Notes under the pieces: generated by a model | What the model saw: the letters and a program-made list of their open reading frames with translations, nothing else | What the model was told of the DNA's origin: nothing | Databases searched by the model: none | Made by a program: the position numbers and the translations under genes | Source: Escherichia virus TH30 | Sequence record: MT446404.1 | Length of the DNA stretch: 51,754 bases | Strand: one strand, 5' to 3' | Shown here: one piece after another, positions 28,322 through 43,421 of the stretch | Layout: every line of letters begins with the position of its first letter | How positions within the stretch are numbered: position 1 is the first letter of the stretch

Positions 28322-28338
28322 TTAACAAAAAGTGCTAT
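28322..28338 (-). promoter_or_regulatory. conserved 17-bp motif, upstream stop TAG embedded
   Basis: Stop of 28335..28622 is the TAG of the motif. Confidence 0.55.
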
Positions 28339-28622
28339 CGCTCATCTTCCCTGGAGCATCCTTTGCCGCAACCATGGCGACCAACTTCCACGATGCCGAC
28401 TCCGCTTAAGCCGATGTATTCCTGACCAGTGTCCTTATCGGTGATGACGTATATCGCTCTGACGTTCTCGTATGCCAGGTCATCCCTGAACTCCTGAATC
28501 TTCACAACCTGGACGCGATCGTTTACGTTTACTGGCATCATCTGCCGAGCGTCGGAGCTAACCCTTGTATCTGAGTCACAACCAGCCAGCGCCAGGGCTG
28601 CTAATAAAATTAGTTTCTTCAT
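28335..28622 (-). CDS. lipoprotein (95 aa), candidate superinfection-exclusion protein
   Basis: Signal plus lipobox MKKLILLAALALAGC. Confidence 0.5.
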   Translation of the reverse strand: MKKLILLAALALAGCDSDTRVSSDARQMMPVNVNDRVQVVKIQEFRDDLAYENVRAIYVITDKDTGQEYIGLSGVGIVEVGRHGCGKGCSREDER

Positions 28623-28819
28623 TCGATAATCCTCAATAGTTTCTCTTTGCGATGCGGTTCGCCGGACTTATTCAGCCAGTAGCGCGCCTGGGAAAGCTGG
28701 CTGGCATGGGCCACTGTCACCCACCAGAATAATGCTACCCGCTTTTGGACTGCATACCACTTGACCGGATGACCTAAGGCGGTCGTCGTGTCAACCAATA
28801 CGATCCTGAATTTATTCAT
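28619..28819 (-). CDS. hypothetical basic protein (about 66 aa from MNKFRIV)
   Basis: ORF trimmed to the ATG overlapping the upstream stop. Confidence 0.3.
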   Translation of the reverse strand: MNKFRIVLVDTTTALGHPVKWYAVQKRVALFWWVTVAHASQLSQARYWLNKSGEPHRKEKLLRIIE

Positions 28820-29030
28820 CGACTTCTGCCTCCACTTCATCAGCCGCCTTGATGAGTGCCGCCGCCAGTTCACGCGCCTGCTCTGCTGTGTAGGTCATAC
28901 CTGTACCATCCGCCCGAGAATCCGGTAAAAGGTCCAGGTGCACGCGCTTACGCATCTTGCCAAACGGAACCTTGATTACTGAGATTTCTGTTTCCTGATT
29001 CCAGGATGAGTTAACTCGAATATCTCTCAT
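28812..29030 (-). CDS. small acidic protein, paralogue family member 3 (72 aa)
   Basis: C-terminus YTAEQARELAAALIKAADEVEAE. Confidence 0.5.
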   Translation of the reverse strand: MRDIRVNSSWNQETEISVIKVPFGKMRKRVHLDLLPDSRADGTGMTYTAEQARELAAALIKAADEVEAEVDE

Positions 29031-29224
29031 TGCTTTTCCGCCTCTTCCGCTACTTTAATGAGCGCCTCCGCCAACTTACGTGCTTGTTCCGGCGTGTAAT
29101 GAGCTATGGCAAAGCTATCCCCGTCGCTGTCTGTTTCAGTAAGACTTACCACGCCGTCATAATAGATTGAGGTTGACACCTCGGTGCTTACGCCTAAAAA
29201 ATCTTCGAAGATTACAATCTCCAT
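29027..29224 (-). CDS. small acidic protein, paralogue family member 2 (65 aa)
   Basis: C-terminus HYTPEQARKLAEALIKVAEEAEKQ. Confidence 0.5.
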   Translation of the reverse strand: MEIVIFEDFLGVSTEVSTSIYYDGVVSLTETDSDGDSFAIAHYTPEQARKLAEALIKVAEEAEKQ

Positions 29225-29226
29225 AA

Positions 29227-29439
29227 TTATTTCTTCTCCGCTTCATCTGCTGCCAGGATTAACGCTGCCGCTAATTTGCGCGCGTCATCAGGTGTATAGT
29301 GCATCATGCTTACATCGCAATCGTCAGGATCGAAGTCAATGGAGACTACAGCCTTGACTACTCCAGTCCGATTGGTTAGCACGCTAACCTCAGCGGCATC
29401 ACCAACCACATCCTCAATGCGTAAAATTTCCATAATCAT
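29227..29439 (-). CDS. small acidic protein, paralogue family member 1 (70 aa)
   Basis: C-terminus HYTPDDARKLAAALILAADEAEKK. Confidence 0.5.
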   Translation of the reverse strand: MIMEILRIEDVVGDAAEVSVLTNRTGVVKAVVSIDFDPDDCDVSMMHYTPDDARKLAAALILAADEAEKK

Positions 29440-29490
29440 TTCCTCTTTGTTGTCGATAGGGTAATCATAGCTGACTACCCGATTTATTGT

Positions 29491-29507
29491 TTAGCAATTC
29501 GTGCTAT
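29491..29507 (-). promoter_or_regulatory. conserved 17-bp motif, upstream stop TAG embedded
   Basis: Stop of 29504..30055 is the TAG of the motif. Confidence 0.55.
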
Positions 29508-30055
29508 TCACCGTTCAGGAGAGCTTTCGCTTTCCGGTAGAACTGGATGGCCTTCTCCACCTCATCGGCATCATAGCCATGGATTGTTGTCTGCGGTGGC
29601 ACGTAGTGAGAACGTCGCGCGTCGGATCGGTATTGGTTGCACCATCTGTACACGCCTCGTTCATCCATTCCCACCAGGGCCGGATGCACATAAATCTTAT
29701 CGCCAATGAGGCAAACAATTCCCGCCTCCTGTAGTGCTGGGATGATGTTATTTGTCAGGTCATGCATGATCCCTTCGCGACCGACGAATGGCTGGACCTT
29801 TCGGATTGCCTCGTATAGAGATCGAATGCCAGCAACTCCCTTCCCATTGCAGCACTGGCGGCTAATCCTGCTCACTACGACGCCGTATTTGTAGCTCAAC
29901 TTGACGCACAGCATCTCTTCGGCGCTGGGCCAGAACTTGAATGATTGACGGTATCCATTGGCATTGATTGCCACACGAAGTGGCGGCAGGTTATCTTGCC
30001 TGGCGACTTCCATCACCTTTTCATCGGTCAATTTATCTTCGTCGAAATTAAACAT
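29504..30055 (-). CDS. 183-aa protein sharing N- and C-terminal segments with the 527-aa P-loop protein at 35589..37172
   Basis: MFNFDEDKL...DNLPPLRVAINANGYRQS and GIRSLYEAIRKVQPF...CLIGDKIYVHP match both ends of the larger protein. Confidence 0.55.
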   Translation of the reverse strand: MFNFDEDKLTDEKVMEVARQDNLPPLRVAINANGYRQSFKFWPSAEEMLCVKLSYKYGVVVSRISRQCCNGKGVAGIRSLYEAIRKVQPFVGREGIMHDLTNNIIPALQEAGIVCLIGDKIYVHPALVGMDERGVYRWCNQYRSDARRSHYVPPQTTIHGYDADEVEKAIQFYRKAKALLNGE

Positions 30056-30591
30056 TAGTTAGTATCCTTAATCATTTCATGGTAACGGGCCAGGGCAATG
30101 AGAGCGCCTTCTTTCTGCTCTCCTTTCAGGTCGATGACGTTTGGTGTGATCTTGAGCAGACGAGCCTTGAACCTTTCAATAGCTGCCGCTTCTTTCTCAA
30201 CATCGGCAGTCTTTCGTTTGGTTGGCTTAAGTGCCCCAGGCTCAAGCTGGATTAACAGGTTCTTATCAGCGCCGTCGCCATCCGCCTTGCGTGCTACAGT
30301 TTCCTCTCCTGACGCCAGCCAGATAAAGCGATGCTTGACGTGCATATCAATATCCCGAAGCTCCTGCATTCTTGCTGCGGTGTTATAGATGTATGAACTT
30401 TTAAGCCCTGCGATCTCACGCCCAGGAGTCATGTACTCCCCCGTCACCTCGTCCAGTATTTCATCTGGATAATCATGACCATTGACCAGGTTGAATATCT
30501 TGCGAACCGGAACTACGCACAGCTTCTTGTCGGACTTAATTGCCTGGCGTACCATCTCGCGAATCACATCACCCAATGTTACCTTATCCAT
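30055..30591 (-). CDS. hypothetical protein (178 aa), first gene of the leftward early block
   Basis: ORF only. Confidence 0.45.
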   Translation of the reverse strand: MDKVTLGDVIREMVRQAIKSDKKLCVVPVRKIFNLVNGHDYPDEILDEVTGEYMTPGREIAGLKSSYIYNTAARMQELRDIDMHVKHRFIWLASGEETVARKADGDGADKNLLIQLEPGALKPTKRKTADVEKEAAAIERFKARLLKITPNVIDLKGEQKEGALIALARYHEMIKDTN

Positions 30592-31109
30592 ACTACCACC
30601 TCATTTGATTGTTGCGTTTAAGTGAGGTCATTATGATGAGAGTTAACGCGTAAGTCAACCGTAATCGCATGTAAAAATCAGGTCGGGAAACATTTCTGCC
30701 ATGTAGGCCTTGCCACACCTGATGTAAGTAGGCGGTATATCGTGTAACGCATCCTGAAAGGTGATTGCCTATATATGGCCTCATTACCCTGGCGGAATGG
30801 TCATCTTATATAGTAGTGGGAGATATTATCAAATTTGATGGAGGTTGCGCCTAGATAGTCGTTACACAGTATACATAGATATATATAATAATAATAATAT
30901 AGATAAATGGTTGTTATATATAGATATTTTATTGTAACTAATGCGTAAAACAGCGTATGCCGCGTATGCTCATGCCAAATCGTTACACGGCATACATTGG
31001 CTATACATGCGTTACGCACAATTACGCGTATGCGCTGGAAAACGTGTGGCGGGAAAATCCTACCAGGCGATCAGGGATCAGATCTCACCCCATCATTCCC
31101 CCCTCCAAT

Positions 31110-31215
31110 GAATCATTGCTCAATTCGCAACAATCGAAAACACCATTGCAAACGATGCAATATTGCTATATGTGCAATAGTGAAGTGAATCATTGCAATA
31201 GCTGCAACAATCCAT
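31110..31215. repeat. array of at least six ATTGC/GCAAT half-sites including palindromes GCAATATTGC and ATTGCAAT
   Basis: Read directly from sequence. Confidence 0.6.
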
Positions 31216-31226
31216 AAATCGAACGA

Positions 31227-31243
31227 ATAGCACTTTTTGCTAA
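31227..31243 (+). promoter_or_regulatory. conserved 17-bp motif ATAGCACTTTTTGCTAA upstream of first rightward gene
   Basis: Followed by ATGACCGATCAGGAGTGA, TATTAT and CATCGAAACGA (31277-31287). Confidence 0.55.
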
Positions 31244-31305
31244 TGACCGATCAGGAGTGATTCGCTATTATTACTTCATCGAAACGAGACATAGAGAGCA
31301 AGCAA

Positions 31306-31632
31306 ATGAAATACGAAAATCGCGGCCAGGACATCATCAAAATCGAAAACGGCGTTGAATATGTGATGGTAGCTTGCAAGGTTAACGGTATGGATTCATT
31401 CGTTTGGGAAGAAATCAAGCCGGAAGTTAAGAGCCTGACCTGTGTAGCCCAGCCTGACGCAGAACGCGATATTTTCACTCGCTACAGCGCTTATGAAATC
31501 GTTCGTGAAACTGCTTGCTTCTGGTGGATTAAGCCTAACGCTCAGTACCGTCACCCGCGCAAAATCAGCAAGCGCACCATGCGTGAAGCTGGTATCAAAG
31601 AAGCATACGCGGCAGAGTTCGACATCGCATAA
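31306..31632 (+). CDS. hypothetical protein (108 aa)
   Basis: ORF with RBS. Confidence 0.45.
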   Translation: MKYENRGQDIIKIENGVEYVMVACKVNGMDSFVWEEIKPEVKSLTCVAQPDAERDIFTRYSAYEIVRETACFWWIKPNAQYRHPRKISKRTMREAGIKEAYAAEFDIA

Positions 31633-31649
31633 ATAGCACGATTTGCTAA
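31633..31649 (+). promoter_or_regulatory. conserved 17-bp motif ATAGCACGATTTGCTAA
   Basis: Directly after stop TAA; followed by ATGACCAATCAGGAGTGA and CATCGAAACGA. Confidence 0.55.
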
Positions 31650-31706
31650 TGACCAATCAGGAGTGAGTTTGCTAAGATTCACCCCATCGAAACGAAGGAT
31701 ATAGAG

Positions 31707-31988
31707 ATGAAAAACGATATTCAGCAAATGGCCTACCGTATACAGGTCGAGGTTCAGGCCAAACAGAATGATGCGGTAATTCGTGCTGTTCAGCGATTTT
31801 ATGGATGCGCTGAAATAACTGAAAGCATCGCTGACAGAACTACTTGCGTCTTTGAGCATGGCGACGCGGTGCTTCGTGACAAGAAAACGGATAAGGTGAT
31901 CATCATCGTTCGTCCGCATACGACCATCGATCATGACTACGGCGTTACTTTTCAGGCTAACTATTTAACGTTCGACGGGAAGAAATGA
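31707..31988 (+). CDS. hypothetical protein (93 aa)
   Basis: ORF. Confidence 0.4.
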   Translation: MKNDIQQMAYRIQVEVQAKQNDAVIRAVQRFYGCAEITESIADRTTCVFEHGDAVLRDKKTDKVIIIVRPHTTIDHDYGVTFQANYLTFDGKK

Positions 31989-32170
31989 TTATGACCACCG
32001 CTAAAATGTATTGTTACGTTGTGATTGCTGAGCCACGCGAGCCGGAATATGACAGCGAGGTGCACTGCGTATGCCTAAGTGAGCAAATGGCAGAGCAGGT
32101 TTGCGAGAAGATGAACGCAAGCGATCGCTTCAATACCTACGACTACTACGAAACGGAGCTACAGAAATGA
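31985..32170 (+). CDS. hypothetical acidic protein (61 aa)
   Basis: ORF, ATGA overlap with upstream gene. Confidence 0.35.
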   Translation: MIMTTAKMYCYVVIAEPREPEYDSEVHCVCLSEQMAEQVCEKMNASDRFNTYDYYETELQK

Positions 32171-32376
32171 TGTTTGACATTGTGCAGTTTATCGGGAGCG
32201 GCAACGAGTATCTGATCAGTTGCGACAACTCACGGTCCGAAATCTTCCGCCTGTTGGATGGTCTGCCATCACAAACAGCCGCGATGGATGAGCACATCAT
32301 TGAATGCGCGTTGTTGTCTGGCGGTGCGCGGGTAATTGGTCAGGCGAAAATCACCATCGAAATTTCACTAATCTGA
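32167..32376 (+). CDS. hypothetical protein (start probably ATGATG at 32167)
   Basis: ORF 32101..32376 trimmed. Confidence 0.3.
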   Translation: MMFDIVQFIGSGNEYLISCDNSRSEIFRLLDGLPSQTAAMDEHIIECALLSGGARVIGQAKITIEISLI

Positions 32377-32380
32377 GGAA

Positions 32381-32809
32381 ATGCAAATGAGACACGGCAT
32401 CATTTTTAAGGCGACGGACGGCACCTCGCGATTCATCATGCCATCAGGCCGGATGTATATGTGGGCTTACGGAGCCTGGCGCTTCTACTATCAGTTCGTC
32501 GATTCAACCTATAAACTTATTCGCTCAGCAGTCGGCAAGAAAGGCAGTAAAGTATTCCTGGCCTCAAGCCGCAAGGTATTCATGGAAAAGCGTGTGGCGC
32601 TCGATCCGATTGACTACTTTGCCGTTGAGTTCATGGGGCATCGGTTCAGTAAAGGGCGATTGTTCCGCAAAGGTGAGATAGCAATGGCACAACAAAATGC
32701 GGCTGTTGATTTCGGTAAAGCGGCACACCAACGCCTGACTGGTTATCAGCCATGCTTTCCGCCAACGCCGTTTTATGCTCACTATAAACGACCACCAAAA
32801 AATCGTTAA
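32381..32809 (+). CDS. hypothetical protein (142 aa)
   Basis: ORF. Confidence 0.4.
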   Translation: MQMRHGIIFKATDGTSRFIMPSGRMYMWAYGAWRFYYQFVDSTYKLIRSAVGKKGSKVFLASSRKVFMEKRVALDPIDYFAVEFMGHRFSKGRLFRKGEIAMAQQNAAVDFGKAAHQRLTGYQPCFPPTPFYAHYKRPPKNR

Positions 32810-32826
32810 ATAGCACTTTTTGTTAA
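32810..32826 (+). promoter_or_regulatory. conserved 17-bp motif ATAGCACTTTTTGTTAA
   Basis: Directly after stop; followed by hairpin and CATCGAAACGA. Confidence 0.55.
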
Positions 32827-32827
32827 A

Positions 32828-32846
32828 AGCCCCTCGCGGGCTTTTG
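32828..32846 (+). terminator. hairpin AGCCC-ctcgc-GGGCT plus T-run
   Basis: Read from sequence. Confidence 0.5.
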
Positions 32847-32890
32847 CTATTATTACTCCATCGAAACGAAGCAATCACGGAGACACAAAA

Positions 32891-33196
32891 ATGATTAACA
32901 TGAACCTTTTCACTAAAGCTGACCACGAAAATATGCAAGCGCTGGCAGACCTTTTCGCCTCCGCCGAAATGGCTGAGATGTTCATGACTGAGAATGAGTT
33001 CCGTGATGGCATCAGTAACTCAATCGAAACTAATTTCGGTGATGCTCGTATCACTGGCGCGATGTTCGCAAACGTTGCTCGTAAATTCTTCCAGTCATTC
33101 CGCGACGCTCGCCACGCAAAAGGCGCTTTCCGCTCCTCGATGGATACTGCTGAAGAGATTAATGCATACATCGAACGCAATAGCACGAATTGCTAA
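32891..33196 (+). CDS. hypothetical acidic protein (101 aa)
   Basis: ORF; last codons NSTNC-stop lie inside the next motif. Confidence 0.4.
   Translation: MINMNLFTKADHENMQALADLFASAEMAEMFMTENEFRDGISNSIETNFGDARITGAMFANVARKFFQSFRDARHAKGAFRSSMDTAEEINAYIERNSTNC
33180..33196 (+). promoter_or_regulatory. conserved 17-bp motif ATAGCACGAATTGCTAA overlapping the 3-prime end of the upstream gene
   Basis: Followed by TATAGT and CATCGAAACGAAACGA. Confidence 0.55.
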
Positions 33197-33262
33197 ACCT
33201 CAATGCCAAGGATGGCGTATAGTTACTTCATCGAAACGAAACGAGCACACCGGAGATAAAAA

Positions 33263-33502
33263 ATGAGCATCCAGGCCACTAAAACAGAAAAGCGTCTCTT
33301 CACTAAGCCTGGTTCAAAAGGCGTTGAGATGATGTTGGTAAACGGTATCGTGTTTAATAACTGCGGCAATGTTCGCGTAGGAAACAAATATACCTGGCTG
33401 AGAACTCTCCTTACTGAAGATAGCCTCAATGCAATGATCATTAACGGTACATTAATTGAAGTCCAGGACGACTGGAAGTTTTACACAGCAAAGCAGCACT
33501 AA
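33263..33502 (+). CDS. hypothetical protein (79 aa)
   Basis: ORF with RBS GGAG. Confidence 0.4.
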   Translation: MSIQATKTEKRLFTKPGSKGVEMMLVNGIVFNNCGNVRVGNKYTWLRTLLTEDSLNAMIINGTLIEVQDDWKFYTAKQH

Positions 33503-33556
33503 TAAATTATATCGCCGCCGGACGACATCCGGCATAAATCAAATGAGGAAGTAAAA

Positions 33557-33781
33557 ATGTCAGTTAAAGCTCAGAACGTAGTAGCACACATCGAATCCAA
33601 AGGCCGCGCAATCATCAAGCTGGACCGTGCCGCAGGCGTTAGTCAAATCACCATCACGCGCCGAGAGTTCAACCGCTACGTTGTTGGCACTCATCCAGGA
33701 TCAATCATCCGCAGCCTTACCCGCGCCGAGATGGTCAACCTGTTAAACGACAACTCACTTTACATCAATTCCTGGAGCTAA
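33557..33781 (+). CDS. hypothetical protein (74 aa)
   Basis: ORF with RBS. Confidence 0.4.
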   Translation: MSVKAQNVVAHIESKGRAIIKLDRAAGVSQITITRREFNRYVVGTHPGSIIRSLTRAEMVNLLNDNSLYINSWS

Positions 33782-33783
33782 CA

Positions 33784-33999
33784 GTGCATCAAGATAATTT
33801 CTGGAGCCGCCACCGCGCGGCACTTGAAGCCGGACTCAATGAAGAGTGGGCGCTCAAGGTTGCTTACGGATGCATCGAACTCGATGACGCATTGGGCGTT
33901 ATGGATATGGATCTGGAAAGCGAAAGCAACCAGTCAGTAGACGGAATCGGGGATGATTTCGACTACCGCTTAAAATTTGATGACGGAATCCCGTTCTAA
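33784..33999 (+). CDS. hypothetical acidic protein (71 aa)
   Basis: ORF. Confidence 0.35.
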   Translation: MHQDNFWSRHRAALEAGLNEEWALKVAYGCIELDDALGVMDMDLESESNQSVDGIGDDFDYRLKFDDGIPF

Positions 34000-34008
34000 G
34001 GTGAGATC

Positions 34009-37687: not shown

Positions 37688-37720
37688 AAAAAAGGGAGCC
37701 TTTCGGCTCCTTTTATTTTT
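37688..37720. terminator. bidirectional terminator between rightward early block and lysis cassette
   Basis: A-run, GGAGCC-tttc-GGCTCC, T-run. Confidence 0.65.
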
Positions 37721-38099
37721 TGCGTCGTTCCAGCCAGATTGAAAGAGCAATCATCACAATGCCGATGAACAGGAATACCAGTCCGGCAATCAGATTACCT
37801 TTCGAGTCATCGTTCCTGATCTCAATCTTATCAGCGATGATGGTGTCAGCCTTGATGCTTGAGGTGCTGACAGACTTCCCGTTTGACGTATCAACCTTTC
37901 CTACCTTTGAATCTTTTATAGTGGTGTCGTTGTCGTTTGACTTATCCACCTTTCCGGTAACGCCTACCGTTTGCTTCACGTTCTCGGCACCAGCCTGTGC
38001 GCTAATTTCTGGCTTACTGCCAATTAAACCAGTCAGCGCCGAAGTGGCTGAACAACCTGAAAGCATAATCACTGCCGCGATCACAATTCCCTTAAGCAT
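37713..38099 (-). CDS. unimolecular spanin-like protein (lipoprotein with C-terminal transmembrane helix, 128 aa)
   Basis: Lipobox LSGC at N-terminus and hydrophobic helix LIAGLVFLFIGIVMIALSIW then RRKK; last gene of lysis cassette. Confidence 0.6.
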   Translation of the reverse strand: MLKGIVIAAVIMLSGCSATSALTGLIGSKPEISAQAGAENVKQTVGVTGKVDKSNDNDTTIKDSKVGKVDTSNGKSVSTSSIKADTIIADKIEIRNDDSKGNLIAGLVFLFIGIVMIALSIWLERRKK

Positions 38100-38563
38100 A
38101 GTTCTATCTCCGCGTTGCGCCTGTTAACCAGGCCTTTGCTAACAACCTTCTTGCCATTTACCGTAATTTTATTCCACATAGAGAACGCCTCACAACCTCC
38201 GCGAATATCACCACGATTCATACGCCTGATAGTTGTTGAGTTCCTCATCGCGTTAGTGCCGATATTATAGCTAAGAGAGTATAGTGCGGCTCTGGTGCTC
38301 ACTGGAACATCAACTTTTAGGGCTTTATCAACAGCTGCCCTGTGAATAGATAGGTGCTTAATCAGAAGTGAGTCGCACTCACTCTGAGTGTACACCTTGC
38401 CGAGAATAACGTCAGGTCCAGTAATCCCCTGGCATACTGTCCACACCCCCGCAACATCCTTGTATGGCCTGTACTCAACACCTTCATGCTCATTTAGGAA
38501 TGGAACAGCTAGCGCTACAGCTCCCGCCACAGCGCCACCAATAATCTTGTTCTTTATACTCAT
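38081..38563 (-). CDS. SAR endolysin (phage lysozyme fold with N-terminal signal-anchor-release helix, 160 aa)
   Basis: N-terminal Gly/Ala-rich weakly hydrophobic helix KIIGGAVAGAVALAVPF followed by EGVEYRPYKDVAGVWTVCQGITG catalytic-type region. Confidence 0.75.
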   Translation of the reverse strand: MSIKNKIIGGAVAGAVALAVPFLNEHEGVEYRPYKDVAGVWTVCQGITGPDVILGKVYTQSECDSLLIKHLSIHRAAVDKALKVDVPVSTRAALYSLSYNIGTNAMRNSTTIRRMNRGDIRGGCEAFSMWNKITVNGKKVVSKGLVNRRNAEIELCLREL

Positions 38564-38565
38564 TA

Positions 38566-38781
38566 TTATTTACTCCTGATCCTCATTGCTTCACGGAGAT
38601 CACCATCCTCAAGGGCTTTATGTAGTGCCCTGCTATCACGCCAGCGAAGCCATGCCCCGAAGATACCAAAGCACACAGCTATTACTAAGCCGATAATGCC
38701 GATTATTGTATTGTCAGATAAGCCGCCACCCATAGCTACTCCGCTACCGGATAAGGCGGCTGCGTCATAGAAATGTTTCAT
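38566..38781 (-). CDS. holin, probably pinholin class (71 aa)
   Basis: Two hydrophobic helices and charged C-terminus; directly upstream of SAR endolysin. Confidence 0.6.
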   Translation of the reverse strand: MKHFYDAAALSGSGVAMGGGLSDNTIIGIIGLVIAVCFGIFGAWLRWRDSRALHKALEDGDLREAMRIRSK

Positions 38782-38811
38782 GTTGCGGCCTCGTTAAGTT
38801 GATTTGTTTAA

Positions 38812-38820
38812 ATAATACCA
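38812..38820 (-). promoter_or_regulatory. extended -10 promoter TGGTATTAT upstream of holin
   Basis: Plus-strand ataatacca about 30 nt upstream of holin ATG. Confidence 0.45.
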
Positions 38821-38895
38821 GATATTACTCCTTGACATAAACGAAAAAAGGCGACCTTAAAGGCCACCTCTTTGTAACTTCATGTTTTTTATAAT

Positions 38896-39069
38896 TTAGT
38901 CTTCTATAATGAATTCCACCAAAGCACCATCAATCGGCGCAAAAATCCACGTCATATCGTCACCATAAATCTTGTAGTATCCGTCACCCTGATACTCACC
39001 GCTGTATGGACTGTTGACAGTGAAAGGAAGTGTCTTAGATGTATTCTTAATGCAAAACAATTTAACCAT
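38896..39069 (-). CDS. possible 57-aa protein (MVKLFCIKNTSKTLPF...)
   Basis: Below ORF-track cut-off; AGAGGA RBS 7 nt upstream. Confidence 0.35.
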   Translation of the reverse strand: MVKLFCIKNTSKTLPFTVNSPYSGEYQGDGYYKIYGDDMTWIFAPIDGALVEFIIED

Positions 39070-39123
39070 GATTAAATCCTCTGATAGTGAGATGTAAATA
39101 TAGCGCCAATCGGCGCCACATGT

Positions 39124-39140
39124 TAGGCAAAAAGTGCTAT
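39124..39140 (-). promoter_or_regulatory. variant conserved motif (ATAGCACTTTTTGCCTA)
   Basis: Immediately after HNH gene stop. Confidence 0.4.
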
Positions 39141-39141
39141 T

Positions 39142-39618
39142 TCAAGATCCGTGACTTCGATGGAATCCATGAATCTTTTCAGCATCCTTTCTTGCTATCA
39201 AAGCGTCATCGAACGAATCTCCATAATAAAGGATCTTTGTTTTTCCATTTATTTTTATCTGCGCTATCCATTTATTTTTCATATTGTTCCAAGCAACACC
39301 AACAGTTCCGCTCGTGTTTGTTGATGGCTTACGCTTGTTCCTGTTGTTGATTAACCTTGTAACCATTCTTAGGTTTTCAATTCTATCATCACCAGGAACG
39401 TGATTTATATGATCTATCTCCATACCATCTGGTATAGTGCCGTTGTGCATCTCCCATACGATTCTATGTCTTGGCGTAATTGTGTCATATCTACGGATAT
39501 ACCAATAACCCCTATGATGCCTACTCCCAGCTTCATCACCAGGCTTCAATCTTGTGCAGTGAGGGTCCTTCCAAAATACCCGTCCATCTTTATAGTATAA
39601 GAAATCATTCCAATTCAT
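39142..39618 (-). CDS. HNH homing endonuclease (158 aa)
   Basis: EIDHINHVPGDDRIENLRMVTR motif; paralogue of 16915..17397 and 40836..41321. Confidence 0.85.
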   Translation of the reverse strand: MNWNDFLYYKDGRVFWKDPHCTRLKPGDEAGSRHHRGYWYIRRYDTITPRHRIVWEMHNGTIPDGMEIDHINHVPGDDRIENLRMVTRLINNRNKRKPSTNTSGTVGVAWNNMKNKWIAQIKINGKTKILYYGDSFDDALIARKDAEKIHGFHRSHGS

Positions 39619-39672
39619 CTAATCATCCTCTCGTTTCTATAAAACAATAATAGCGCCATATAGGCGCTATGT

Positions 39673-39689
39673 TTTAACAAAAAGTGCTA
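39673..39689 (-). promoter_or_regulatory. conserved 17-bp motif (ATAGCACTTTTTGTTAA)
   Basis: One nt after TGA stop of 39690..40832; followed by hairpin. Confidence 0.5.
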
Positions 39690-40832
39690 TCAAATATCAC
39701 TCATCTCTGGACGGTAAACGAATCGACCAACCTCACCGAACTCTTTTGAGTACACGATTACAGCTGCTTGGCGATACGATCTCCAACCACCACGGGCCGC
39801 ATATGCGTCTTTTGCTCCTAGTTGGCCGTGAACCTCATCAATCCCCAAAGTTCCTTCCGTGATCGTCTGATGGTGCCAATGGCCACTATGCGTGTAAATA
39901 TATTTGCTCGTACCAAACTCTTCGCGGAAGTCAGTAGCCATTGCCGCCAGTCGAGTATCTGCTTTCTTCATGGTGTGACCATGAGTGTACCCCAGCAATG
40001 TCTTACCCCACTTGGTACGGTGAAGAATCATAGGAGACGTATCAACCGTTACGCGCACCTCATCTTCAAAGTATGCCGCCATTGCAGCGCGGAGCCAAAT
40101 CATACCCGCCTGATCATGATTCCCTTCAATGATCTGGATTTCGACCTCTTCGTGCTTATCCAGCATTAGCGCCACCGCGCGGCGTACGGAACGGATTGCA
40201 ACGTGAACTAGCTTGGCGTATCGACTATCCTGATCCAGTACGTGACCGCTTGCAGGCGTCACTGCGTCCAGGCCATCAGAGTGAAGGAAGTCACCGCCGA
40301 TTAGCAGAACTGCTTTCTTAGCCTTCGGTGATACGCCTACGGAATAATCAAAGAAGTTTTTCAGCACTTTCTCTGAGATGTCGGTGCTGTAGTTCTCACC
40401 GCATTCATGCTTGTGGGCCATCGCGCCAATATGAAGATCGAATACAGGATAGAGCGCCAGGAGATTTTCATCATAGCTAGGCTCGCCAAGGATAGGCTGA
40501 GCCGCCGCGCGCGGGAGTTCGTCACAGAATGCTTCAATTGCAGCATCCATCATGGCGGCTAACTTTTCCTTGTCCTGATCGGTCTTAATCCAGCGGATTT
40601 TCTCGTTGCCTTCCGCGTCAATCATAGTTGATGTGGCCTTAACCATGAAGCCGTCAGGCACATATTTAGCAACTGCTTTATTGCCATGCCCGTGACCTTT
40701 ACGAGCAAGGTTACTTGAGCGCTGCTCAACTGTACGAATGTTCATCCCGTATTCTTGGGCGATTTGACGAAGTGTTTTACCAGCTTCGCGCTCAGCAATG
40801 AATTGTTCGTCACTAATCTTCTGCATAGCCAT
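39690..40832 (-). CDS. HTH-domain plus calcineurin-like metallophosphoesterase (380 aa)
   Basis: N-terminal HTH-like LRQIAQEYGMNIRTVEQR; GDFLHSD and GNHD metal-binding motifs. Confidence 0.55.
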   Translation of the reverse strand: MAMQKISDEQFIAEREAGKTLRQIAQEYGMNIRTVEQRSSNLARKGHGHGNKAVAKYVPDGFMVKATSTMIDAEGNEKIRWIKTDQDKEKLAAMMDAAIEAFCDELPRAAAQPILGEPSYDENLLALYPVFDLHIGAMAHKHECGENYSTDISEKVLKNFFDYSVGVSPKAKKAVLLIGGDFLHSDGLDAVTPASGHVLDQDSRYAKLVHVAIRSVRRAVALMLDKHEEVEIQIIEGNHDQAGMIWLRAAMAAYFEDEVRVTVDTSPMILHRTKWGKTLLGYTHGHTMKKADTRLAAMATDFREEFGTSKYIYTHSGHWHHQTITEGTLGIDEVHGQLGAKDAYAARGGWRSYRQAAVIVYSKEFGEVGRFVYRPEMSDI

Positions 40833-40835
40833 TTT

Positions 40836-41321
40836 TTATTCTCCGTGATTCTTGTGAAATTTAAATTTTCTTTGAAATTGCATTCTACACAATTTCGCTT
40901 CTTCTATCGAGTTAAAGTAACCAAGATGCATTAACTTTCCGTCAACCTTTATCCTTGCGCAATACTTTGATAGCGGCTTGTGCCACGACACGCCCGTAAC
41001 TCCGGTTGAATTATCAATTCGTATCGACTGGTTTCTTCCGTTTTCCTTTCTTGTGACAAGCCTGAGGTTAGATATGCTGTTATTGCTCCTGTCATGGTCT
41101 ATATGGTCTATCTCCATTCCATTAGGAATTTCACCGTTATGTATATACCATACAACAATATGAACCCTATAGTTTTTCTTGTTAAACATCATTTGCCAGT
41201 ATCCAGTCACTTTACTGGCGCAACCGCACTTGCTTCCAACCTTTATCTTTTTACTCTTTGATTTCTTCCATACTAAATGAAGTTCATCATCATACTCTAC
41301 AAAATCAATAAGCTCATTCAC
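40836..41321 (-). CDS. HNH homing endonuclease (161 aa)
   Basis: EIDHIDHDRSNNSISNLRLVTRKEN motif. Confidence 0.85.
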   Translation of the reverse strand: MNELIDFVEYDDELHLVWKKSKSKKIKVGSKCGCASKVTGYWQMMFNKKNYRVHIVVWYIHNGEIPNGMEIDHIDHDRSNNSISNLRLVTRKENGRNQSIRIDNSTGVTGVSWHKPLSKYCARIKVDGKLMHLGYFNSIEEAKLCRMQFQRKFKFHKNHGE

Positions 41322-41402
41322 ATTAAAATCCTTATCGTGTTAGTAAGTAGATGATAATAAAACCAATTAGCGGCGGTAATAATACAGGAATTAAGCAGCG
41401 CA

Positions 41403-41654
41403 TCAAATCTTTTTCAACCATGTTGTTAAAGTATCTGGCTCAACCGCTTCACCTGCACTCTCTGATTCGCTGGGAACCATCATACCAGTTGAAGGGCTAA
41501 AATACATCAGGCGATAGCCGCCACCGCGCGAACATGGCACATCTTCGAAGTCAGAAGGCAACCAGTCAGCGAAAGGGATGATCGCGAACGTCTCATTGTT
41601 GTTGCTGCAAGTCGGATATTTGTCAGCGTCAAAATCAAGGCCTGGTAAGTTCAT
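41403..41654 (-). CDS. hypothetical acidic protein (83 aa)
   Basis: ORF. Confidence 0.35.
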   Translation of the reverse strand: MNLPGLDFDADKYPTCSNNNETFAIIPFADWLPSDFEDVPCSRGGGYRLMYFSPSTGMMVPSESESAGEAVEPDTLTTWLKKI

Positions 41655-41896
41655 TTATATCTTCTCGCTGCGTCTTTCGTTGCTTGAATGCAGGCTTTGT
41701 AGTCAATCTTCACCGGAGTTGCCGGAACTCTGATCAGCTTACGTGGCCTTTCGTGTATATACGTCATTTTCCCGTTAAAGATGACGCATATGTCTTTAAT
41801 ATCGAAGTACTTGGCTATAAGCGCAATGTCATCACTTATTCCTGCTTCCTTGCAGTGATTCCAAACAGCCTGACGGCCTACATCAACAGTTACCAT
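41651..41896 (-). CDS. hypothetical protein (about 82 aa from MVTVDVG)
   Basis: ORF trimmed to ATG with GGGGAG RBS. Confidence 0.3.
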   Translation of the reverse strand: MVTVDVGRQAVWNHCKEAGISDDIALIAKYFDIKDICVIFNGKMTYIHERPRKLIRVPATPVKIDYKACIQATKDAARRYK

Positions 41897-42116
41897 AAAT
41901 ATCAAAGCTCCCCGACATGGCCTGATAATCTGCGATAGGCAAATGACCATAAGCGCCCTTGAGATAAGTAACAGCAATAACCTCATCCAGTCCGCCATCC
42001 TTGCCAAGCGCCAGCGCTTCACTTGCGCAATCATTAGCCAGGCGAAGCAGGTGCGGCAGTAAAATATTTTTACGGTATGCTTGCTGGTTGTAAGTGCTAA
42101 AAGGTTGCTTCTTCAT
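41883..42116 (-). CDS. hypothetical protein (77 aa)
   Basis: ORF; leader shares GTATACTTCTTTCATACCAAC with the leader of 27271..27459. Confidence 0.35.
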   Translation of the reverse strand: MKKQPFSTYNQQAYRKNILLPHLLRLANDCASEALALGKDGGLDEVIAVTYLKGAYGHLPIADYQAMSGSFDIYGNC

Positions 42117-42173
42117 GGTGATTCCTCGTCTCGTTGGTATGAAAGAAGTATACCCGCTCGGCGGCGGGTATGT

Positions 42174-42190
42174 TTAGCAATTAGTGCTAT
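42174..42190 (-). promoter_or_regulatory. conserved 17-bp motif (ATAGCACTAATTGCTAA), upstream stop TAG embedded
   Basis: Followed by hairpin TACCCGC...GCGGGTA with TATACT. Confidence 0.55.
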
Positions 42191-42426
42191 TGTGCGAAAT
42201 CTTCAGGGCACTCGCGCTTATAGTCTTCCATATCTTTTCGTATTGCTTTAACCCATGTATTGATCGGCTGATCCTGCACCTCTTCGAATGACATATCCAG
42301 ATCTGAGAACGCCCAGGCATCACCCTTAAAACCAGCTTTCGTTAACACCTCACAAACGACAGCGCGAAATAAAAGATACTTACCTTTGTCGGTTAAATTG
42401 ATTTGTACACTGCTCATTTTAAACAC
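42187..42426 (-). CDS. hypothetical acidic protein (79 aa)
   Basis: ORF. Confidence 0.4.
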   Translation of the reverse strand: MFKMSSVQINLTDKGKYLLFRAVVCEVLTKAGFKGDAWAFSDLDMSFEEVQDQPINTWVKAIRKDMEDYKRECPEDFAQ

Positions 42427-43147
42427 TCCGTTTACGTGGTTTTTTACGGCTTACGCCAGGGCAAATATCAGCGACGCTAACGTATGTCGTTTTCTGCGTC
42501 TCGCCTTCTTCAAGTTTTCGCATGACAAAAATCACGCTACCTTTATTGTTGCCATCGACAGGCTTTCCGGTCAGTCCAGAGATGAAGGCCAACCGCCCCG
42601 TCCGGCAATATTCCTGGCTATCAATCTCTGTGATGTCAGCCTCAATCCAGATGATTTCAGCCGCGTTGCGCCGGGCCTCGGCAAACCATGCCGTAGAGTT
42701 ATCACCAGGAAGCAACATATCAATCTGATTGTTGTGCTCCATTTGCTCAATCGCTTTCTTCACGAAAGGATCTGGATGTGAGTACGGCGGATTCAGCCAG
42801 ATATGCTTATTGCTACCCCACCAAATTTTGAGACAGTTCACATGTTCGCTGTAGAACTTTTCGCAAACAGCATTGTTAGCGCTGGCGGCGGCGTCAATGT
42901 CATACTTCCCGTAACGCGACTCCATCCATGAGATCACTTCTCTGTCAGTGGCCCAAAGGTCACGCACAGCGTCAGGCGTCTTGCTTCCGGCGTATCGGTT
43001 TCCAGTTACCTGATAGAAGGTGTCCGGCTTAACCGCTTGATAGTGACCGTTACCAGGAACAAGCGCATTGGTAACAAAGTTTTCACGTTCGATCTGCTCA
43101 AAGCTAACGAATGCGTCATGAGTATCTTTGTCGTTTGAGTCGATCAT
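42419..43147 (-). CDS. dam: DNA N6-adenine methyltransferase (Dam-like, 242 aa)
   Basis: Catalytic NPPY motif (WLNPPYSHP). Confidence 0.75.
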   Translation of the reverse strand: MIDSNDKDTHDAFVSFEQIERENFVTNALVPGNGHYQAVKPDTFYQVTGNRYAGSKTPDAVRDLWATDREVISWMESRYGKYDIDAAASANNAVCEKFYSEHVNCLKIWWGSNKHIWLNPPYSHPDPFVKKAIEQMEHNNQIDMLLPGDNSTAWFAEARRNAAEIIWIEADITEIDSQEYCRTGRLAFISGLTGKPVDGNNKGSVIFVMRKLEEGETQKTTYVSVADICPGVSRKKPRKRSV

Positions 43148-43148
43148 C

Positions 43149-43421
43149 TCATTTAACCTCGGTAACTTTGCAGTTATTCACAGCGACGAACCCGCCGACG
43201 CTAACTTTAACCTGACTTTCAGTCACGTTATAAACTGCCTTGCCTAAGAAAGTTTGCAGTTCATAGTGATCGCCTTCACGCTCAATAACAACGCCCTTAT
43301 CTGAAACAATCTGCGACTTGGTTACTGTGAATGATTCCTTGCCGCAATCGTAAAACTTGGTATCTTCTGCACAACCTGCCATTGCCACAACTGCCAGTAG
43401 GGCGATGATTGACTTTTTCAT
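43149..43421 (-). CDS. lipoprotein (90 aa)
   Basis: Signal plus lipobox MKKSIIALLAVVAMAGC. Confidence 0.5.
   Translation of the reverse strand: MKKSIIALLAVVAMAGCAEDTKFYDCGKESFTVTKSQIVSDKGVVIEREGDHYELQTFLGKAVYNVTESQVKVSVGGFVAVNNCKVTEVK

What the first reader, a model, noticed from the sequence alone, without database searches (positions are those of the whole stretch)
28335..43421. Two small lipoproteins and a secreted protein - candidate superinfection-exclusion factors
28335..28622 and 43149..43421 have lipobox signal peptides and 1498..1836 has a plain Sec signal. T1-like and related phages are known to encode small outer-membrane lipoproteins that block their receptor (Cor, Llp), so one of these may do the same.
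Basis: partly seen in the sequence, partly recalled or inferred. Interest (0 to 1): 0.5.

Follow-up and report, generated by a model that had tools for sequence, protein, structure and literature searches.

The report
Three unrelated phage envelope proteins
The three exported proteins are real, but only the plain secreted one, encoded beside the phage's receptor-binding genes, looks like a receptor-blocking exclusion factor; the two lipoproteins belong to other, uncharacterised families.

Summary
The window is a complete T1-like (Drexlerviridae, Nouzillyvirus-like) genome. All three ORFs exist, and their export signals are conserved in homologues. They are three unrelated things.

(1) 1498..1836 is the third gene of a receptor-recognition cassette (455..1836) that converges on gpJ. 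The cassette is homologous to that of phage IsaakIselin, which targets YncD/PqqU. The ORF is a homologue (38% identity, E 1e-30) of SIP-1, published on AlphaFold evidence only as a periplasmic TonB-C-terminal-domain mimic that blocks the receptor from inside. It is the credible exclusion factor.

(2) Lp2 (43149..43421) is an outer-membrane-type lipoprotein with an MliC/PliC/PhiA-like, disulfide-clamped beta-barrel. It sits in a helicase–VRR-NUC–Lp2–Dam block in phages that use different receptors, so it is not a receptor-matched blocker.

(3) Lp1 (28335..28622) belongs to a large uncharacterised phage and prophage lipoprotein family (431 clusters). Members from Enterobacterales phages carry Asp at +2, the inner-membrane retention signal. 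In 29 of 65 viral contigs the homologue lies just after the endolysin gene, usually followed by Rz.

Neither lipoprotein resembles Cor or Llp once the signal peptide is removed. No function has been tested experimentally.

The parts
455..763 (+). RBP-2 homologue, first gene of the receptor-recognition cassette
   Evidence: 46% identical to IsaakIselin bas10_0026 (QXV80561, RBP-2), E 4e-29. Same position in IME347, NBD2, PHB17, Skenny and SXFY507.
773..1423 (+). RBP-1 homologue, second gene of the cassette
   Evidence: 66% identical to IsaakIselin bas10_0025 (QXV80560, RBP-1), E 5e-109. phrog_4524. Homologues in 58 phage records.
1498..1836 (+). Sec-exported periplasmic protein, SIP-1 homologue and best candidate superinfection-exclusion factor. 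Signal peptide 1498..1551, mature protein from F19.
   Evidence: 38% identical to IsaakIselin SIP-1 (QXV80559), E 1e-30. phrog_25729. About 75 nt downstream of RBP-1 in every record listed in both searches. Cys44 and Cys71 invariant. hhalign places residues 22-72 on TonB 160-215, score 19.3 against shuffles of 9.9±2.1. A lipoprotein version exists in HK639.
1840..1859 (.). G+C-rich hairpin terminator between the convergent SIP-1 gene and gpJ
   Evidence: Terminator scan: 8-bp stem with 6 GC pairs and a T-run on the minus strand. Sequence.
1865..5197 (-). gpJ-like tail tip protein
   Evidence: Pfam FNIII-A_GpJ, Phage-tail_3 and Phage_Tail_Tip.
28335..28622 (-). Lp1: small lipoprotein with Asp at +2 (predicted inner-membrane retention), member of a large uncharacterised phage/prophage family
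   Evidence: Lipobox LAGC. 431 family clusters. Cys15 and the motif D..AY…R.IY.I.D..TG.E..G.SG.GI.E.G.H..GK….DER are conserved. Asp+2 in 7 of 7 enterobacterial phage members. Found in lysis cassettes in 29 of 65 viral loci.
43149..43421 (-). Lp2: lipoprotein with Ala at +2 (outer-membrane type) and a predicted MliC/PliC/PhiA-like beta-barrel
42419..43147 (-). Dam methyltransferase, immediately downstream of Lp2
   Evidence: Pfam Dam, E 4e-60.
43488..43916 (-). VRR-NUC nuclease, immediately upstream of Lp2
   Evidence: Pfam VRR_NUC.
43913..46015 (-). DNA helicase, head of the helicase–VRR-NUC–Lp2–Dam block
   Evidence: Pfam Helicase_C and ResIII. Same gene order in IsaakIselin, KLPN1 and LL5.
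37713..38099 (-).
   Evidence: Lipobox LSGC plus a C-terminal transmembrane helix. Weak NCBIfam spanin2 hit. Overlaps the endolysin gene.
38081..38563 (-). Endolysin (T4-lysozyme type)
   Evidence: Pfam Phage_lysozyme, E 2e-36.

Best explanation
The finding lumps together three unrelated envelope proteins.

(A) 1498..1836.
Shown:
- It is the third gene of a three-gene receptor-recognition cassette that converges on gpJ.
- All three genes are homologous to the cassette of the YncD/PqqU-dependent phages IsaakIselin and IME347.
- The protein has a cleavable Sec signal and two invariant cysteines.
Inferred:
- After export it sits in the periplasm.
- Like its homologue SIP-1, it acts as a TonB-C-terminal-domain mimic that docks on the periplasmic face of the TonB-dependent transporter this phage uses, probably PqqU/YncD.
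- Docking holds the transporter in a state the phage's own RBP-1/RBP-2 cannot bind.
- This would exclude superinfecting phages and protect progeny from adsorbing to debris. It is the same logic as Llp on FhuA and Rtp45 on LptDE.

(B) Lp2.
Shown:
- It is a conserved gene of the helicase–VRR-NUC–Lp2–Dam block.
- It has an outer-membrane-type lipobox and a predicted eight-stranded barrel closed by a Cys26–Cys84 disulfide.
- The barrel is closest to the MliC/PliC/PhiA lysozyme-inhibitor fold.
Inferred:
- It binds a periplasmic target that does not depend on the receptor, perhaps a T4-lysozyme-type muramidase.

(C) Lp1.
Shown:
- It belongs to a widespread phage and prophage lipoprotein family.
- Asp at +2 is conserved in members from phages of Enterobacterales.
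- Homologues often lie between endolysin and Rz.
Inferred:
- It is anchored in the inner membrane facing the periplasm.
- It acts in lysis control, or in some other process at the inner membrane, and not as an outer-membrane receptor plug.
For: (A) The secreted protein.
- Cassette architecture and homology: RBP-2 46%, RBP-1 66% and SIP-1 38% identity to IsaakIselin.
- The same three-gene cassette converging on gpJ occurs in six further Drexlerviridae, counting IsaakIselin, from several genera.
- Wherever a record is listed in both searches, the SIP gene lies about 75 nt after RBP-1.
- Other Nouzillyviruses carry different cassettes at exactly this site. This shows the three genes move as a host-range module.
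- PMC12124388 reports high-confidence AlphaFold2 complexes. RBP-1/RBP-2 sit on the outer face of PqqU and SIP-1 on its periplasmic face. It also reports a SignalP signal peptide and Foldseek similarity of SIP-1 to the TonB C-terminus.
- Here, hhalign places the family on TonB residues 160-215 with score 19.3. No shuffle out of 200 reached this (mean 9.9, sd 2.1, max 16.6).
- The lambdoid phage HK639 has a homologue (E 1e-20) carrying a lipobox in place of the A-x-A site. This ties the family to the periplasm and outer-membrane inner leaflet, where Llp acts.
- Precedents for receptor-adjacent exclusion genes: PMC9586334, PMC12685063, PMC13164509, PMC8594841.

(B) Lp2.
- Homologues in 231 phage records, with identical synteny in Webervirus, the TolC-using LL5 and the YncD-using IsaakIselin.
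- 100% identical in ESCO41, P818 and p111, which lack this window's cassette.
- Three invariant cysteines.
- Confident model.
- Foldseek top hit is PhiA, probability 0.97, TM 0.51.
- PhiA also lacks the SGxxY motif and has an N-to-C disulfide (PMC8334348).

(C) Lp1.
- 431 clusters at E ≤ 0.001. A lipobox-like motif is present in 127 of the top 150.
- Asp+2 in 7 of 7 phages or prophages of E. coli, Klebsiella, Enterobacter and Hafnia, although the surrounding linker varies. Asp+2 also in all 14 close relatives.
- In 29 of 65 IMG/VR loci the homologue directly follows an endolysin of one of two unrelated families. In 20 of them it overlaps the Rz start.
- It is an accessory gene within the genus, absent from ESCO41, P818, p111 and others. 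It occurs in relatives with at least two other receptor cassettes.
Against: General: no experiment exists for any of the three proteins or for SIP-1 itself. The published SIP-1 role rests on AlphaFold2 modelling.

(A)
- The TonB link here is one weak profile alignment. HH-suite gives probability 1.9% and E 0.026 for that single comparison. There is no Pfam TonB_C hit and no PDB profile hit.
- The window's cassette is more diverged from the two proven YncD users (RBP-1 63-66%, SIP-1 37-46%) than they are from each other (74% and 54%). The receptor is therefore probable, not certain.
- SIP-1 and the RBP genes recombine independently.
- No promoter of its own was found, and the Shine-Dalgarno sequence is weak.

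(B)
- The MliC/PliC similarity is at fold level only. Foldseek E is 0.19, and no Pfam or PDB sequence match was found.
- hhalign against MliC is no better than shuffles, 19 of 200 reaching the real score.
- Eight-stranded barrels are common, and the SGxxY inhibitory motif is absent.
- PhiA itself failed to inhibit its proposed target in vitro (PMC8334348).

(C)
- The model is only moderate (pLDDT 68) and has no structural match.
- The lysis-cassette copies form one subfamily (median 84% identity). The association could therefore reflect a single ancestral insertion.
- In this window the gene is not in the lysis cassette.
- The +2 rule is a prediction from E. coli Lol biology, not a localisation measurement.
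Confidence: 0.6

Rival explanations
1. One reading: one of the two lipoproteins is a Cor/Llp-type outer-membrane lipoprotein that plugs this phage's terminal receptor from the periplasmic side.
For: Both have canonical lipoboxes. Lp2 has a non-Asp +2 residue, as expected for outer-membrane sorting. Both give weak hits to the Cor PHROG, phrog_1119 (E 0.0018 and 0.0024). Known exclusion lipoproteins are small, diverse and hard to recognise by sequence (PMC12685063).
Confidence: 0.08
2. The secreted protein does not block one specific receptor. Instead it is a general TonB antagonist. As a free TonB C-terminal-domain mimic it would cap the TonB boxes of many transporters. That would shut down TonB-dependent uptake and exclude all TonB-dependent phages and colicins. 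Alternatively it mainly protects progeny from debris.
For: The alignment to TonB 160-215 covers the region that pairs with TonB boxes. SIP-1 alleles are exchanged independently of RBP alleles (IsaakIselin against NBD2 and Skenny), as expected if they need not match the RBP. A TonB-like fold is reported in PMC12124388.
Against: The gene is strictly linked to one cassette type and absent from FhuA, BtuB, LptD and TolC cassettes. The published model shows a specific interface with PqqU. Strong divergence between alleles suggests co-evolution with a particular partner.
Confidence: 0.15
3. Lp2 is a receptor-independent exclusion or lysis-protection factor. It would be a periplasmic inhibitor of a T4-lysozyme-type muramidase, either the tail lysozyme of incoming phages (as T4 Spackle does) or the phage's own SAR endolysin before holin triggering.
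For: MliC/PliC/PhiA/ACP barrels dominate the structural matches. The N-to-C disulfide is conserved as in PhiA (PMC8334348). The phage's endolysin is of the T4-lysozyme family. Spackle is a precedent for exclusion by lysozyme inhibition (PMC7677548). Expression with replication genes would come early enough.
Against: No sequence-level link to MliC/PliC. The SGxxY motif is absent. PhiA's inhibitory activity is itself unconfirmed in vitro (PMC8334348). Siphophages of this family are not known to carry a tail lysozyme. The barrel could bind something else entirely.
Confidence: 0.2
4. Lp1 is a receptor-independent superinfection-exclusion protein acting at the inner membrane. It would block DNA translocation by incoming phages, as P22 SieA, T4 Imm or the lipoprotein Ltp of Streptococcus phage TP-J34 do.
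For: Predicted inner-membrane anchoring with a periplasmic domain. Moron-like distribution across unrelated phages, in nin regions and early regions. Accessory within the genus.
Against: In 29 of 65 viral loci it is embedded in the late lysis operon, with start/stop overlaps to endolysin and Rz. This suggests late co-expression with lysis genes, not early exclusion. No homology to known Sie proteins.
Confidence: 0.2

Closest known systems
SIP-1 (QXV80559, bas10_0024) of Escherichia phage IsaakIselin, putative superinfection blocker of PqqU/YncD (PMC12124388)
   Same: Homologous over the full length (38% identity, E 1e-30). Same length, Sec signal peptide with an A-x-A site, two conserved cysteines, and the same position as third gene after RBP-2 and RBP-1, converging on gpJ.
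   Different: Much more diverged than the RBP genes (38% against 66%). The receptor of this phage has not been determined. SIP-1's own function is only modelled, not tested.
Llp of phage T5 (FhuA blocker; PDB 8A60) and Rtp45 of phage RTP (LptDE blocker; PDB 9RPS)
   Same: Same working logic for the secreted protein. It is a small exported protein encoded next to the receptor-binding gene, and it is thought to bind the periplasmic face of the phage's own receptor and switch it to a non-binding state (PMC9586334, PMC12685063).
   Different: Llp and Rtp45 are outer-membrane lipoproteins of about 6-7 kDa with other folds. The window's protein is a soluble periplasmic protein of about 10.5 kDa, though HK639 has a lipoprotein version. 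No sequence or fold similarity to either was detected for any of the three ORFs.
Cor of T1/phi80/N15 (phrog_1119)
   Same: Lp1 and Lp2 share only the lipoprotein signal peptide with Cor.
   Different: No similarity in the mature part. Cor lies in the FhuA-type cassette downstream of gpJ with two membrane-protein genes (PMC13164509). Lp1 and Lp2 lie elsewhere, and this phage has a different cassette.
TonB C-terminal domain (E. coli TonB residues about 150-239)
   Same: The profile alignment of the SIP-1 family falls on TonB 160-215, including the YP…A…G.V motif region. Its score lies above all 200 shuffles. PMC12124388 reports Foldseek similarity.
   Different: No Pfam TonB_C match. No N-terminal anchor or proline-rich spacer. 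Two cysteines are present that TonB lacks.
MliC/PliC lysozyme inhibitors and Brucella PhiA (PDB 2F09, 3OE3, 4MIR, 7DPY)
   Same: Lp2's predicted fold is a small eight-stranded antiparallel barrel closed by a disulfide between the first and last strands. It is lipid-anchored like MliC. Like PhiA it lacks the SGxxY motif.
   Different: No detectable sequence homology. It is about 7 residues shorter between the cysteines. It is phage-encoded within a replication gene block. Its target is unknown.
T1 gp11-type unimolecular spanin
   Same: The third lipobox ORF, 37713..38099, has an N-terminal lipobox and a C-terminal transmembrane helix and lies next to the endolysin and holin.
   Different: It is not one of the ORFs in the finding. 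Neither Lp1 nor Lp2 has a C-terminal transmembrane helix, so neither is a spanin.

Membership tests
SIP-1 family (phrog_25729; receptor-cassette periplasmic protein) | Full-length sequence homology to IsaakIselin SIP-1 | tested here: met
   BLASTP 38% identity over 102 aa, E 1e-30. phrog_25729 E 4e-31, and still 1e-28 without the signal peptide.
SIP-1 family (phrog_25729; receptor-cassette periplasmic protein) | Encoded directly after RBP-2 and RBP-1 homologues, next to gpJ | tested here: met
   455..763, 773..1423 and 1498..1836 converge on gpJ 1865..5197. Identical layout in six other phages, counting IsaakIselin.
SIP-1 family (phrog_25729; receptor-cassette periplasmic protein) | N-terminal export signal | tested here: met
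   The n-, h- and c-regions and the A-N-A|F site are read from the sequence. The signal is conserved in 7 homologues and replaced by a lipobox in HK639. No dedicated signal-peptide predictor was available.
SIP-1 family (phrog_25729; receptor-cassette periplasmic protein) | TonB C-terminal-domain-like fold | tested here: inconclusive
   hhalign to TonB 160-215 scores 19.3, with 0 of 200 shuffles as high, but HH probability is 1.9%. No Pfam or PDB sequence hit.
SIP-1 family (phrog_25729; receptor-cassette periplasmic protein) | Binds the periplasmic face of PqqU/YncD and excludes phage | not testable with these tools
   Needs complex modelling or experiment. Only an AlphaFold2 prediction for the homologue is published (PMC12124388).
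Cor (phrog_1119) | Sequence similarity of the mature protein to Cor | tested here: not met
   The weak hits of full-length Lp1 and Lp2 (E 0.0018 and 0.0024) disappear for the mature sequences; no hit at E ≤ 1.
Cor (phrog_1119) | Located in the cor cassette downstream of gpJ | tested here: not met
   Lp1 lies among small ORFs at 28.3 kb. Lp2 lies between VRR-NUC and Dam at 43.1 kb. The site next to gpJ holds a YncD-type cassette.
Llp (T5) | Outer-membrane lipoprotein (no Lol-avoidance signal) | tested here: inconclusive
   Lp2 has +2 Ala, which fits. Lp1 has +2 Asp, which does not. This is a sorting prediction from the E. coli +2 rule, not a measurement.
Llp (T5) | Fold similar to Llp (PDB 8A60) | tested here: not met
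Llp (T5) | Gene adjacent to the receptor-binding protein gene and co-varying with it | tested here: not met
   Both lipoproteins are conserved in relatives whose receptor cassette differs.
MliC/PliC (PF09864) | Eight-stranded beta-barrel with a disulfide joining the terminal strands | tested here: met
MliC/PliC (PF09864) | Match to the family profile and the SGxxY lysozyme-binding motif | tested here: not met
   No Pfam MliC hit in 42 members at E ≤ 10. hhalign is not above shuffles. The corresponding segment reads LGKAVY.
Unimolecular spanin | Lipobox plus C-terminal transmembrane helix, in the lysis cassette | tested here: not met
   Lp1 and Lp2 lack a C-terminal transmembrane helix and are not in the lysis cassette. 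The feature is met instead by 37713..38099.

The most novel reading that the evidence does not exclude
Lp1 may represent an unrecognised, widespread component of phage lysis cassettes. It would be an inner-membrane-anchored periplasmic lipoprotein of about 80 aa with a near-invariant polar motif (D, Y, D, S, H, K and a C-terminal DER). In enterobacterial lambdoid prophages it is co-translated between endolysin and Rz/Rz1. In T1-like, jumbo and other phages it has moved elsewhere in the genome. Its proposed role is to regulate endolysin or spanin action, or to sense the periplasm for lysis timing, and not to exclude phages.
Probability: 0.3. Interest if true: 0.65.

Novelty: new member of a known kind. 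Interest (0 to 1): 0.45.

Why it matters
If the secreted protein blocks its receptor as predicted, this phage adds a diverged allele of a third structural solution to receptor masking from the inside. That solution is a TonB-domain mimic, in both soluble and lipid-anchored forms, alongside Llp and Rtp45. This is useful for three purposes:
- predicting cross-exclusion in phage cocktails;
- reading receptor specificity from genomes;
- designing inhibitors of TonB-dependent transporters.

The cassette is also a clean example of host-range module swapping within one genus.

The two lipoproteins mark two sizeable uncharacterised families of phage envelope proteins. One is a core gene of many Drexlerviridae with a lysozyme-inhibitor-like fold. 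The other recurs inside lysis cassettes. Neither has any literature I could find, so each is a concrete target for functional work.

Tried and rejected
- Pfam, NCBIfam and PADLOC scans of all three proteins gave nothing above threshold. The T4_Spackle hit for the secreted protein (E 0.036) covers only the signal peptide.
- Profile searches of the PDB with the Lp2 and SIP-1 families found nothing meaningful.
- hhalign of the mature Lp2 family against a small MliC/PliC alignment matched only a 15-residue Y.C….TV motif. It was not above shuffles, so sequence homology to MliC is rejected.
- The afdb50 fold library was unavailable.
- I looked for a conserved partner gene upstream of Lp1. The upstream ORFs in PaulSarasin and KLB19 are unrelated to the window's.
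- The promoter scan of 1..2000 found no promoter for the SIP-1 gene and no excess of promoter-like sites.
- I considered either lipoprotein as a spanin. This was rejected because neither has a C-terminal transmembrane helix, and the real u-spanin lies elsewhere.
- The weak UzuA (PADLOC) hit to a 22-residue stretch of Lp1 was not pursued.
- A first shuffle test timed out and was rerun.
- Literature searches found no paper on the Lp1 or Lp2 families.

Full report
**What the window is.** The 51,754-nt window is a complete T1-like siphophage genome. Its first 427 nt are repeated exactly at the end. The closest relatives are Drexlerviridae of the genus Nouzillyvirus: ESCO41, CJ19, P817, TH21 and others, at 83-94% DNA identity in the regions tested. 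The gene order is typical. gpJ and the tail genes occupy 1.9-13 kb on the minus strand, and the terminase lies at 19.5-21.6 kb. A long run of small ORFs follows up to about 31 kb. The lysis cassette is at 37.7-38.8 kb and the replication genes at 42-49 kb.

**The observation.** All three ORFs are present as described.
- Lp1 (28335..28622, minus strand) begins MKKLILLAALALAG|C.
- Lp2 (43149..43421, minus strand) begins MKKSIIALLAVVAMAG|C.
- The third protein (1498..1836, plus strand) begins MKKLIIVAALLASFSANA|FN, a signal peptidase I site with no lipobox cysteine.

A strict lipobox pattern applied to every start codon of every ORF of at least 30 aa in six frames (1850 candidates) finds three hits. 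Composition-matched shuffles give a mean of 0.78, and 4 of 100 shuffles reach three. The count alone is therefore only mildly unusual.

Conservation is what makes the signals convincing. The lipobox Cys is invariant in 83 Lp1 relatives and in 42 Lp2 relatives. The signal peptide is retained in all aligned homologues of the secreted protein.

The third lipobox hit, 37713..38099, is not in the finding. It has a C-terminal transmembrane helix and overlaps the endolysin gene, so it is the T1-type unimolecular spanin.

**The secreted protein belongs to the receptor cassette.** ORFs 455..763, 773..1423 and 1498..1836 form a block that converges on gpJ (1865..5197). A G+C-rich hairpin lies between the block and gpJ.

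DNA of this block has almost no match among 50,697 phage records; only Henu7 matches, at 73% over part of it. Yet the flanks on both sides match all the Nouzillyviruses. At the same site the relatives carry other gene sets:
- ESCO41 and P817 have an 80-aa and a 318-aa gene.
- BUCT-XGG-1 has two genes co-directional with gpJ.

This is the "bona fide RBP locus" described for small siphophages, whose alleles track the terminal receptor (PMC8594841).

At protein level the window's three genes match the cassette of IsaakIselin (Bas10). That phage depends experimentally on YncD, now called PqqU. Identities are 46%, 66% and 38% in order.

The same three-gene layout occurs in IME347 (also YncD-dependent according to PMC8594841), NBD2, PHB17, Skenny and SXFY507. 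In every phage record listed in both tblastn searches, the homologue of the secreted protein lies about 75 nt downstream of the RBP-1 homologue.

**What is published about the homologue.** PMC12124388 modelled the three IsaakIselin proteins with PqqU.
- RBP-1 and RBP-2 dock as a pair on the extracellular face.
- SIP-1 has a SignalP-predicted signal peptide.
- By Foldseek, SIP-1 resembles the C-terminal domain of TonB.

The authors propose that it is a superinfection blocker analogous to T5 Llp. That is a model, not an experiment.

**What I could add.**
1. A profile of eight family members aligns residues 22-72 onto E. coli TonB 160-215, which is the C-terminal domain. The HH-suite statistics are poor (E 0.026 for one comparison, probability 1.9%). 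However, the score of 19.3 exceeds all 200 shuffles of the TonB domain (mean 9.9, sd 2.1, max 16.6). This is weak but independent support.
2. Two cysteines are invariant, as expected for a periplasmic disulfide.
3. The lambdoid phage HK639 has the RBP-2/RBP-1 pair directly after its J gene. In the unannotated gap after them, on the opposite strand, lies a clear homologue (35% identity, E 1e-20). Its signal peptide ends in a lipobox, LVAG|C. The family therefore exists in soluble and lipid-anchored forms, which places it in the compartment where Llp and Rtp45 work.

No Pfam TonB_C hit and no PDB profile hit was obtained.

**How sure is the receptor?** The two proven YncD users share 74% (RBP-1), 63% (RBP-2) and 54% (SIP-1) identity. 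The window's proteins are 63-66%, 42-46% and 37-46% identical to them. PqqU/YncD is the likely receptor but is not established.

The matrix also shows mosaicism. IsaakIselin and NBD2 have nearly identical RBPs (98%, 91%) but SIP-1 at 52%. IsaakIselin and the Klebsiella phage Skenny share SIP-1 at 90% but RBP-1 at only 61%. The blocker and the binders evidently need to match the receptor, not each other.

**Lp2.** The gene sits between VRR-NUC and Dam, downstream of the helicase. Its stop codon is one base from the Dam start. tblastn finds homologues in 231 phage records, at 32-39% identity outside the genus. Gene order is identical in:
- Klebsiella phage KLPN1 (Webervirus);
- LL5 (Tlsvirus, a TolC user according to PMC8594841);
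- IsaakIselin, a YncD user.

The protein is 100% identical in ESCO41, P818 and p111, whose receptor cassettes differ from the window's. A protein matched to one receptor would not behave this way.

The lipobox Cys and two further cysteines (Cys26, Cys84) are invariant, and the +2 residue is never Asp in the eight sequences aligned. AlphaFold2 with 42 sequences gives pLDDT above 90 across the mature part, an all-beta barrel.

Structural matches point to lysozyme-inhibitor barrels:
- Foldseek ranks PhiA first (probability 0.97, TM 0.51), but with E 0.19.

At sequence level nothing supports homology: no Pfam MliC hit in any of the 42 members, no PDB profile hit, and an hhalign score no better than shuffles. 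The SGxxY motif that inserts into c-type lysozymes is absent.

PhiA is the nearest analogue. It is also a disulfide-clamped MliC/PliC-fold protein without SGxxY. It was proposed to control a T4-lysozyme-like muramidase but did not inhibit it in vitro (PMC8334348). The window's endolysin is of the T4-lysozyme family.

My reading is that Lp2 is a receptor-independent periplasmic binder, possibly of a muramidase. This step is inference.

**Lp1.** The word-indexed search found only 18 close relatives. A profile search of 1.84 billion representatives found 431 clusters at E ≤ 0.001, of which 313 are at E ≤ 1e-10. Of the top 150, 127 have a lipobox-like motif. The mature domain carries a strongly conserved motif ending in a C-terminal DER. 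No Pfam, NCBIfam or annotated PHROG family covers it. The model is mediocre (pLDDT 68) and has no structural match.

Homologues occur in:
- other Drexlerviridae;
- lambdoid phages of Enterobacter and Hafnia, in the nin region;
- jumbo phages of Serratia, Pectobacterium and Burkholderia;
- prophages of very diverse bacteria, for example between TerL and portal in Alysiella.

Two observations bear on mechanism.

First, the +2 residue varies across the family as a whole. It is Asp in all 14 close relatives. It is also Asp in 7 of 7 named phages or prophages of E. coli, Klebsiella, Enterobacter and Hafnia, although the linker around it varies. In E. coli, Asp at +2 is the Lol-avoidance signal that keeps lipoproteins in the inner membrane. 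This is established knowledge of the Lol pathway and was not measured here. A Cor/Llp/Rtp45-type plug must be in the outer membrane.

Second, in 29 of 65 IMG/VR loci the homologue lies immediately after an endolysin gene. In 21 loci this is a SAR T4-lysozyme type (33-100% identical to one another). In 8 it is an unrelated phrog_181 type. In 20 loci the homologue's stop overlaps the start of Rz by 4 nt, with a holin upstream. All 29 have Asp at +2 (the single "S" there is a regex mis-hit in the over-extended L054 ORF, whose lipobox reads LSAC-D).

These copies form one subfamily (median 84% identity). One ancestral insertion cannot be excluded. Even so, the tight translational coupling within a late lysis operon argues for a lysis-related or inner-membrane role there.

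In the window, Lp1 is an accessory gene. It is absent from ESCO41, P818, p111, PH1062 and GaoY1-9D. It is present in relatives with at least two other receptor cassettes, and it has no conserved neighbour.

**Comparison with Cor and Llp.**
- The Cor PHROG hit both lipoproteins weakly, but not their mature sequences. The similarity was the signal peptide.
- No Llp structure appears among the fold matches.
- Cor is confined to FhuA-type cassettes (PMC13164509), which this phage does not have.

**Verdict.** The secreted protein is a new, diverged member of a family already proposed, though not yet shown, to exclude phages by capping a TonB-dependent receptor from the periplasm.

The two lipoproteins are not Cor/Llp analogues. 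They belong to two uncharacterised families whose context suggests other envelope functions.

Overall interest is moderate. The most novel thread is the Lp1 family's recurrent place inside lysis cassettes.

Noticed in passing
window 1..427 and 51328..51754: The first 427 nt are repeated exactly at the end of the window. This is an assembly overlap or terminal redundancy. The unique genome is 51,327 nt, and the ORFs 85..402 and 51412..51729 are the same sequence.
   Followed up: yes
window 37713..38099 (-): A third lipobox protein, missed in this finding, has a C-terminal transmembrane helix. It overlaps the T4-lysozyme-type endolysin (38081..38563), next to a 71-aa putative holin (38566..38781). 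It is a T1-type unimolecular spanin.
   Followed up: partly
L025 (HK639, NC_016158) 3107..3469 (-): An unannotated 120-aa ORF lies in the gap between HK639_25 and HK639_26. It is a SIP-1 homologue (35% identity, E 1e-20) with a lipobox (LVAGC) in place of a signal peptidase I site.
   Followed up: yes
window 455..1836 compared with L002, L029-L033: The cassette is mosaic. IsaakIselin and NBD2 share 98% in RBP-1 but only 52% in SIP-1. IsaakIselin and the Klebsiella phage Skenny share 90% in SIP-1 but 61% in RBP-1. The blocker and binder genes recombine independently.
   Followed up: partly
window 455..1865 compared with other Nouzillyviruses (L003-L005): The whole receptor cassette is swapped relative to every close relative. 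At least three cassette types occupy the same site within one genus, while the flanks stay 83-90% identical.
   Followed up: yes
L010 3308..4846 and 29 of the IMG/VR loci L038-L105: In enterobacterial lambdoid prophages the Lp1 homologue lies between the endolysin (two unrelated types) and Rz/Rz1, with overlapping start and stop codons. Asp is at +2 in all of them.
   Followed up: partly
window 28031..28255 and 28812..29030 (-): Two small ORFs flanking Lp1 both hit phrog_13316 and share a C-terminal motif (YTPDQARQLA… / YTAEQARELA…). They appear to be paralogues of unknown function.
   Followed up: no
window 43422..43487 (-): A hairpin, GAGGTG-N9-CACCTC, without a T-run lies in the 66-nt gap between VRR-NUC and Lp2. 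It could be an RNA structure affecting Lp2 expression.
   Followed up: no
window 28335..28622, residues 50-71: A 22-residue stretch of Lp1 (AYENVRAIYVITDKDTGQEYIG) weakly matches the PADLOC UzuA profile (E 2.7e-4) and phrog_26160 at the same profile positions. Its significance is unknown.
   Followed up: no
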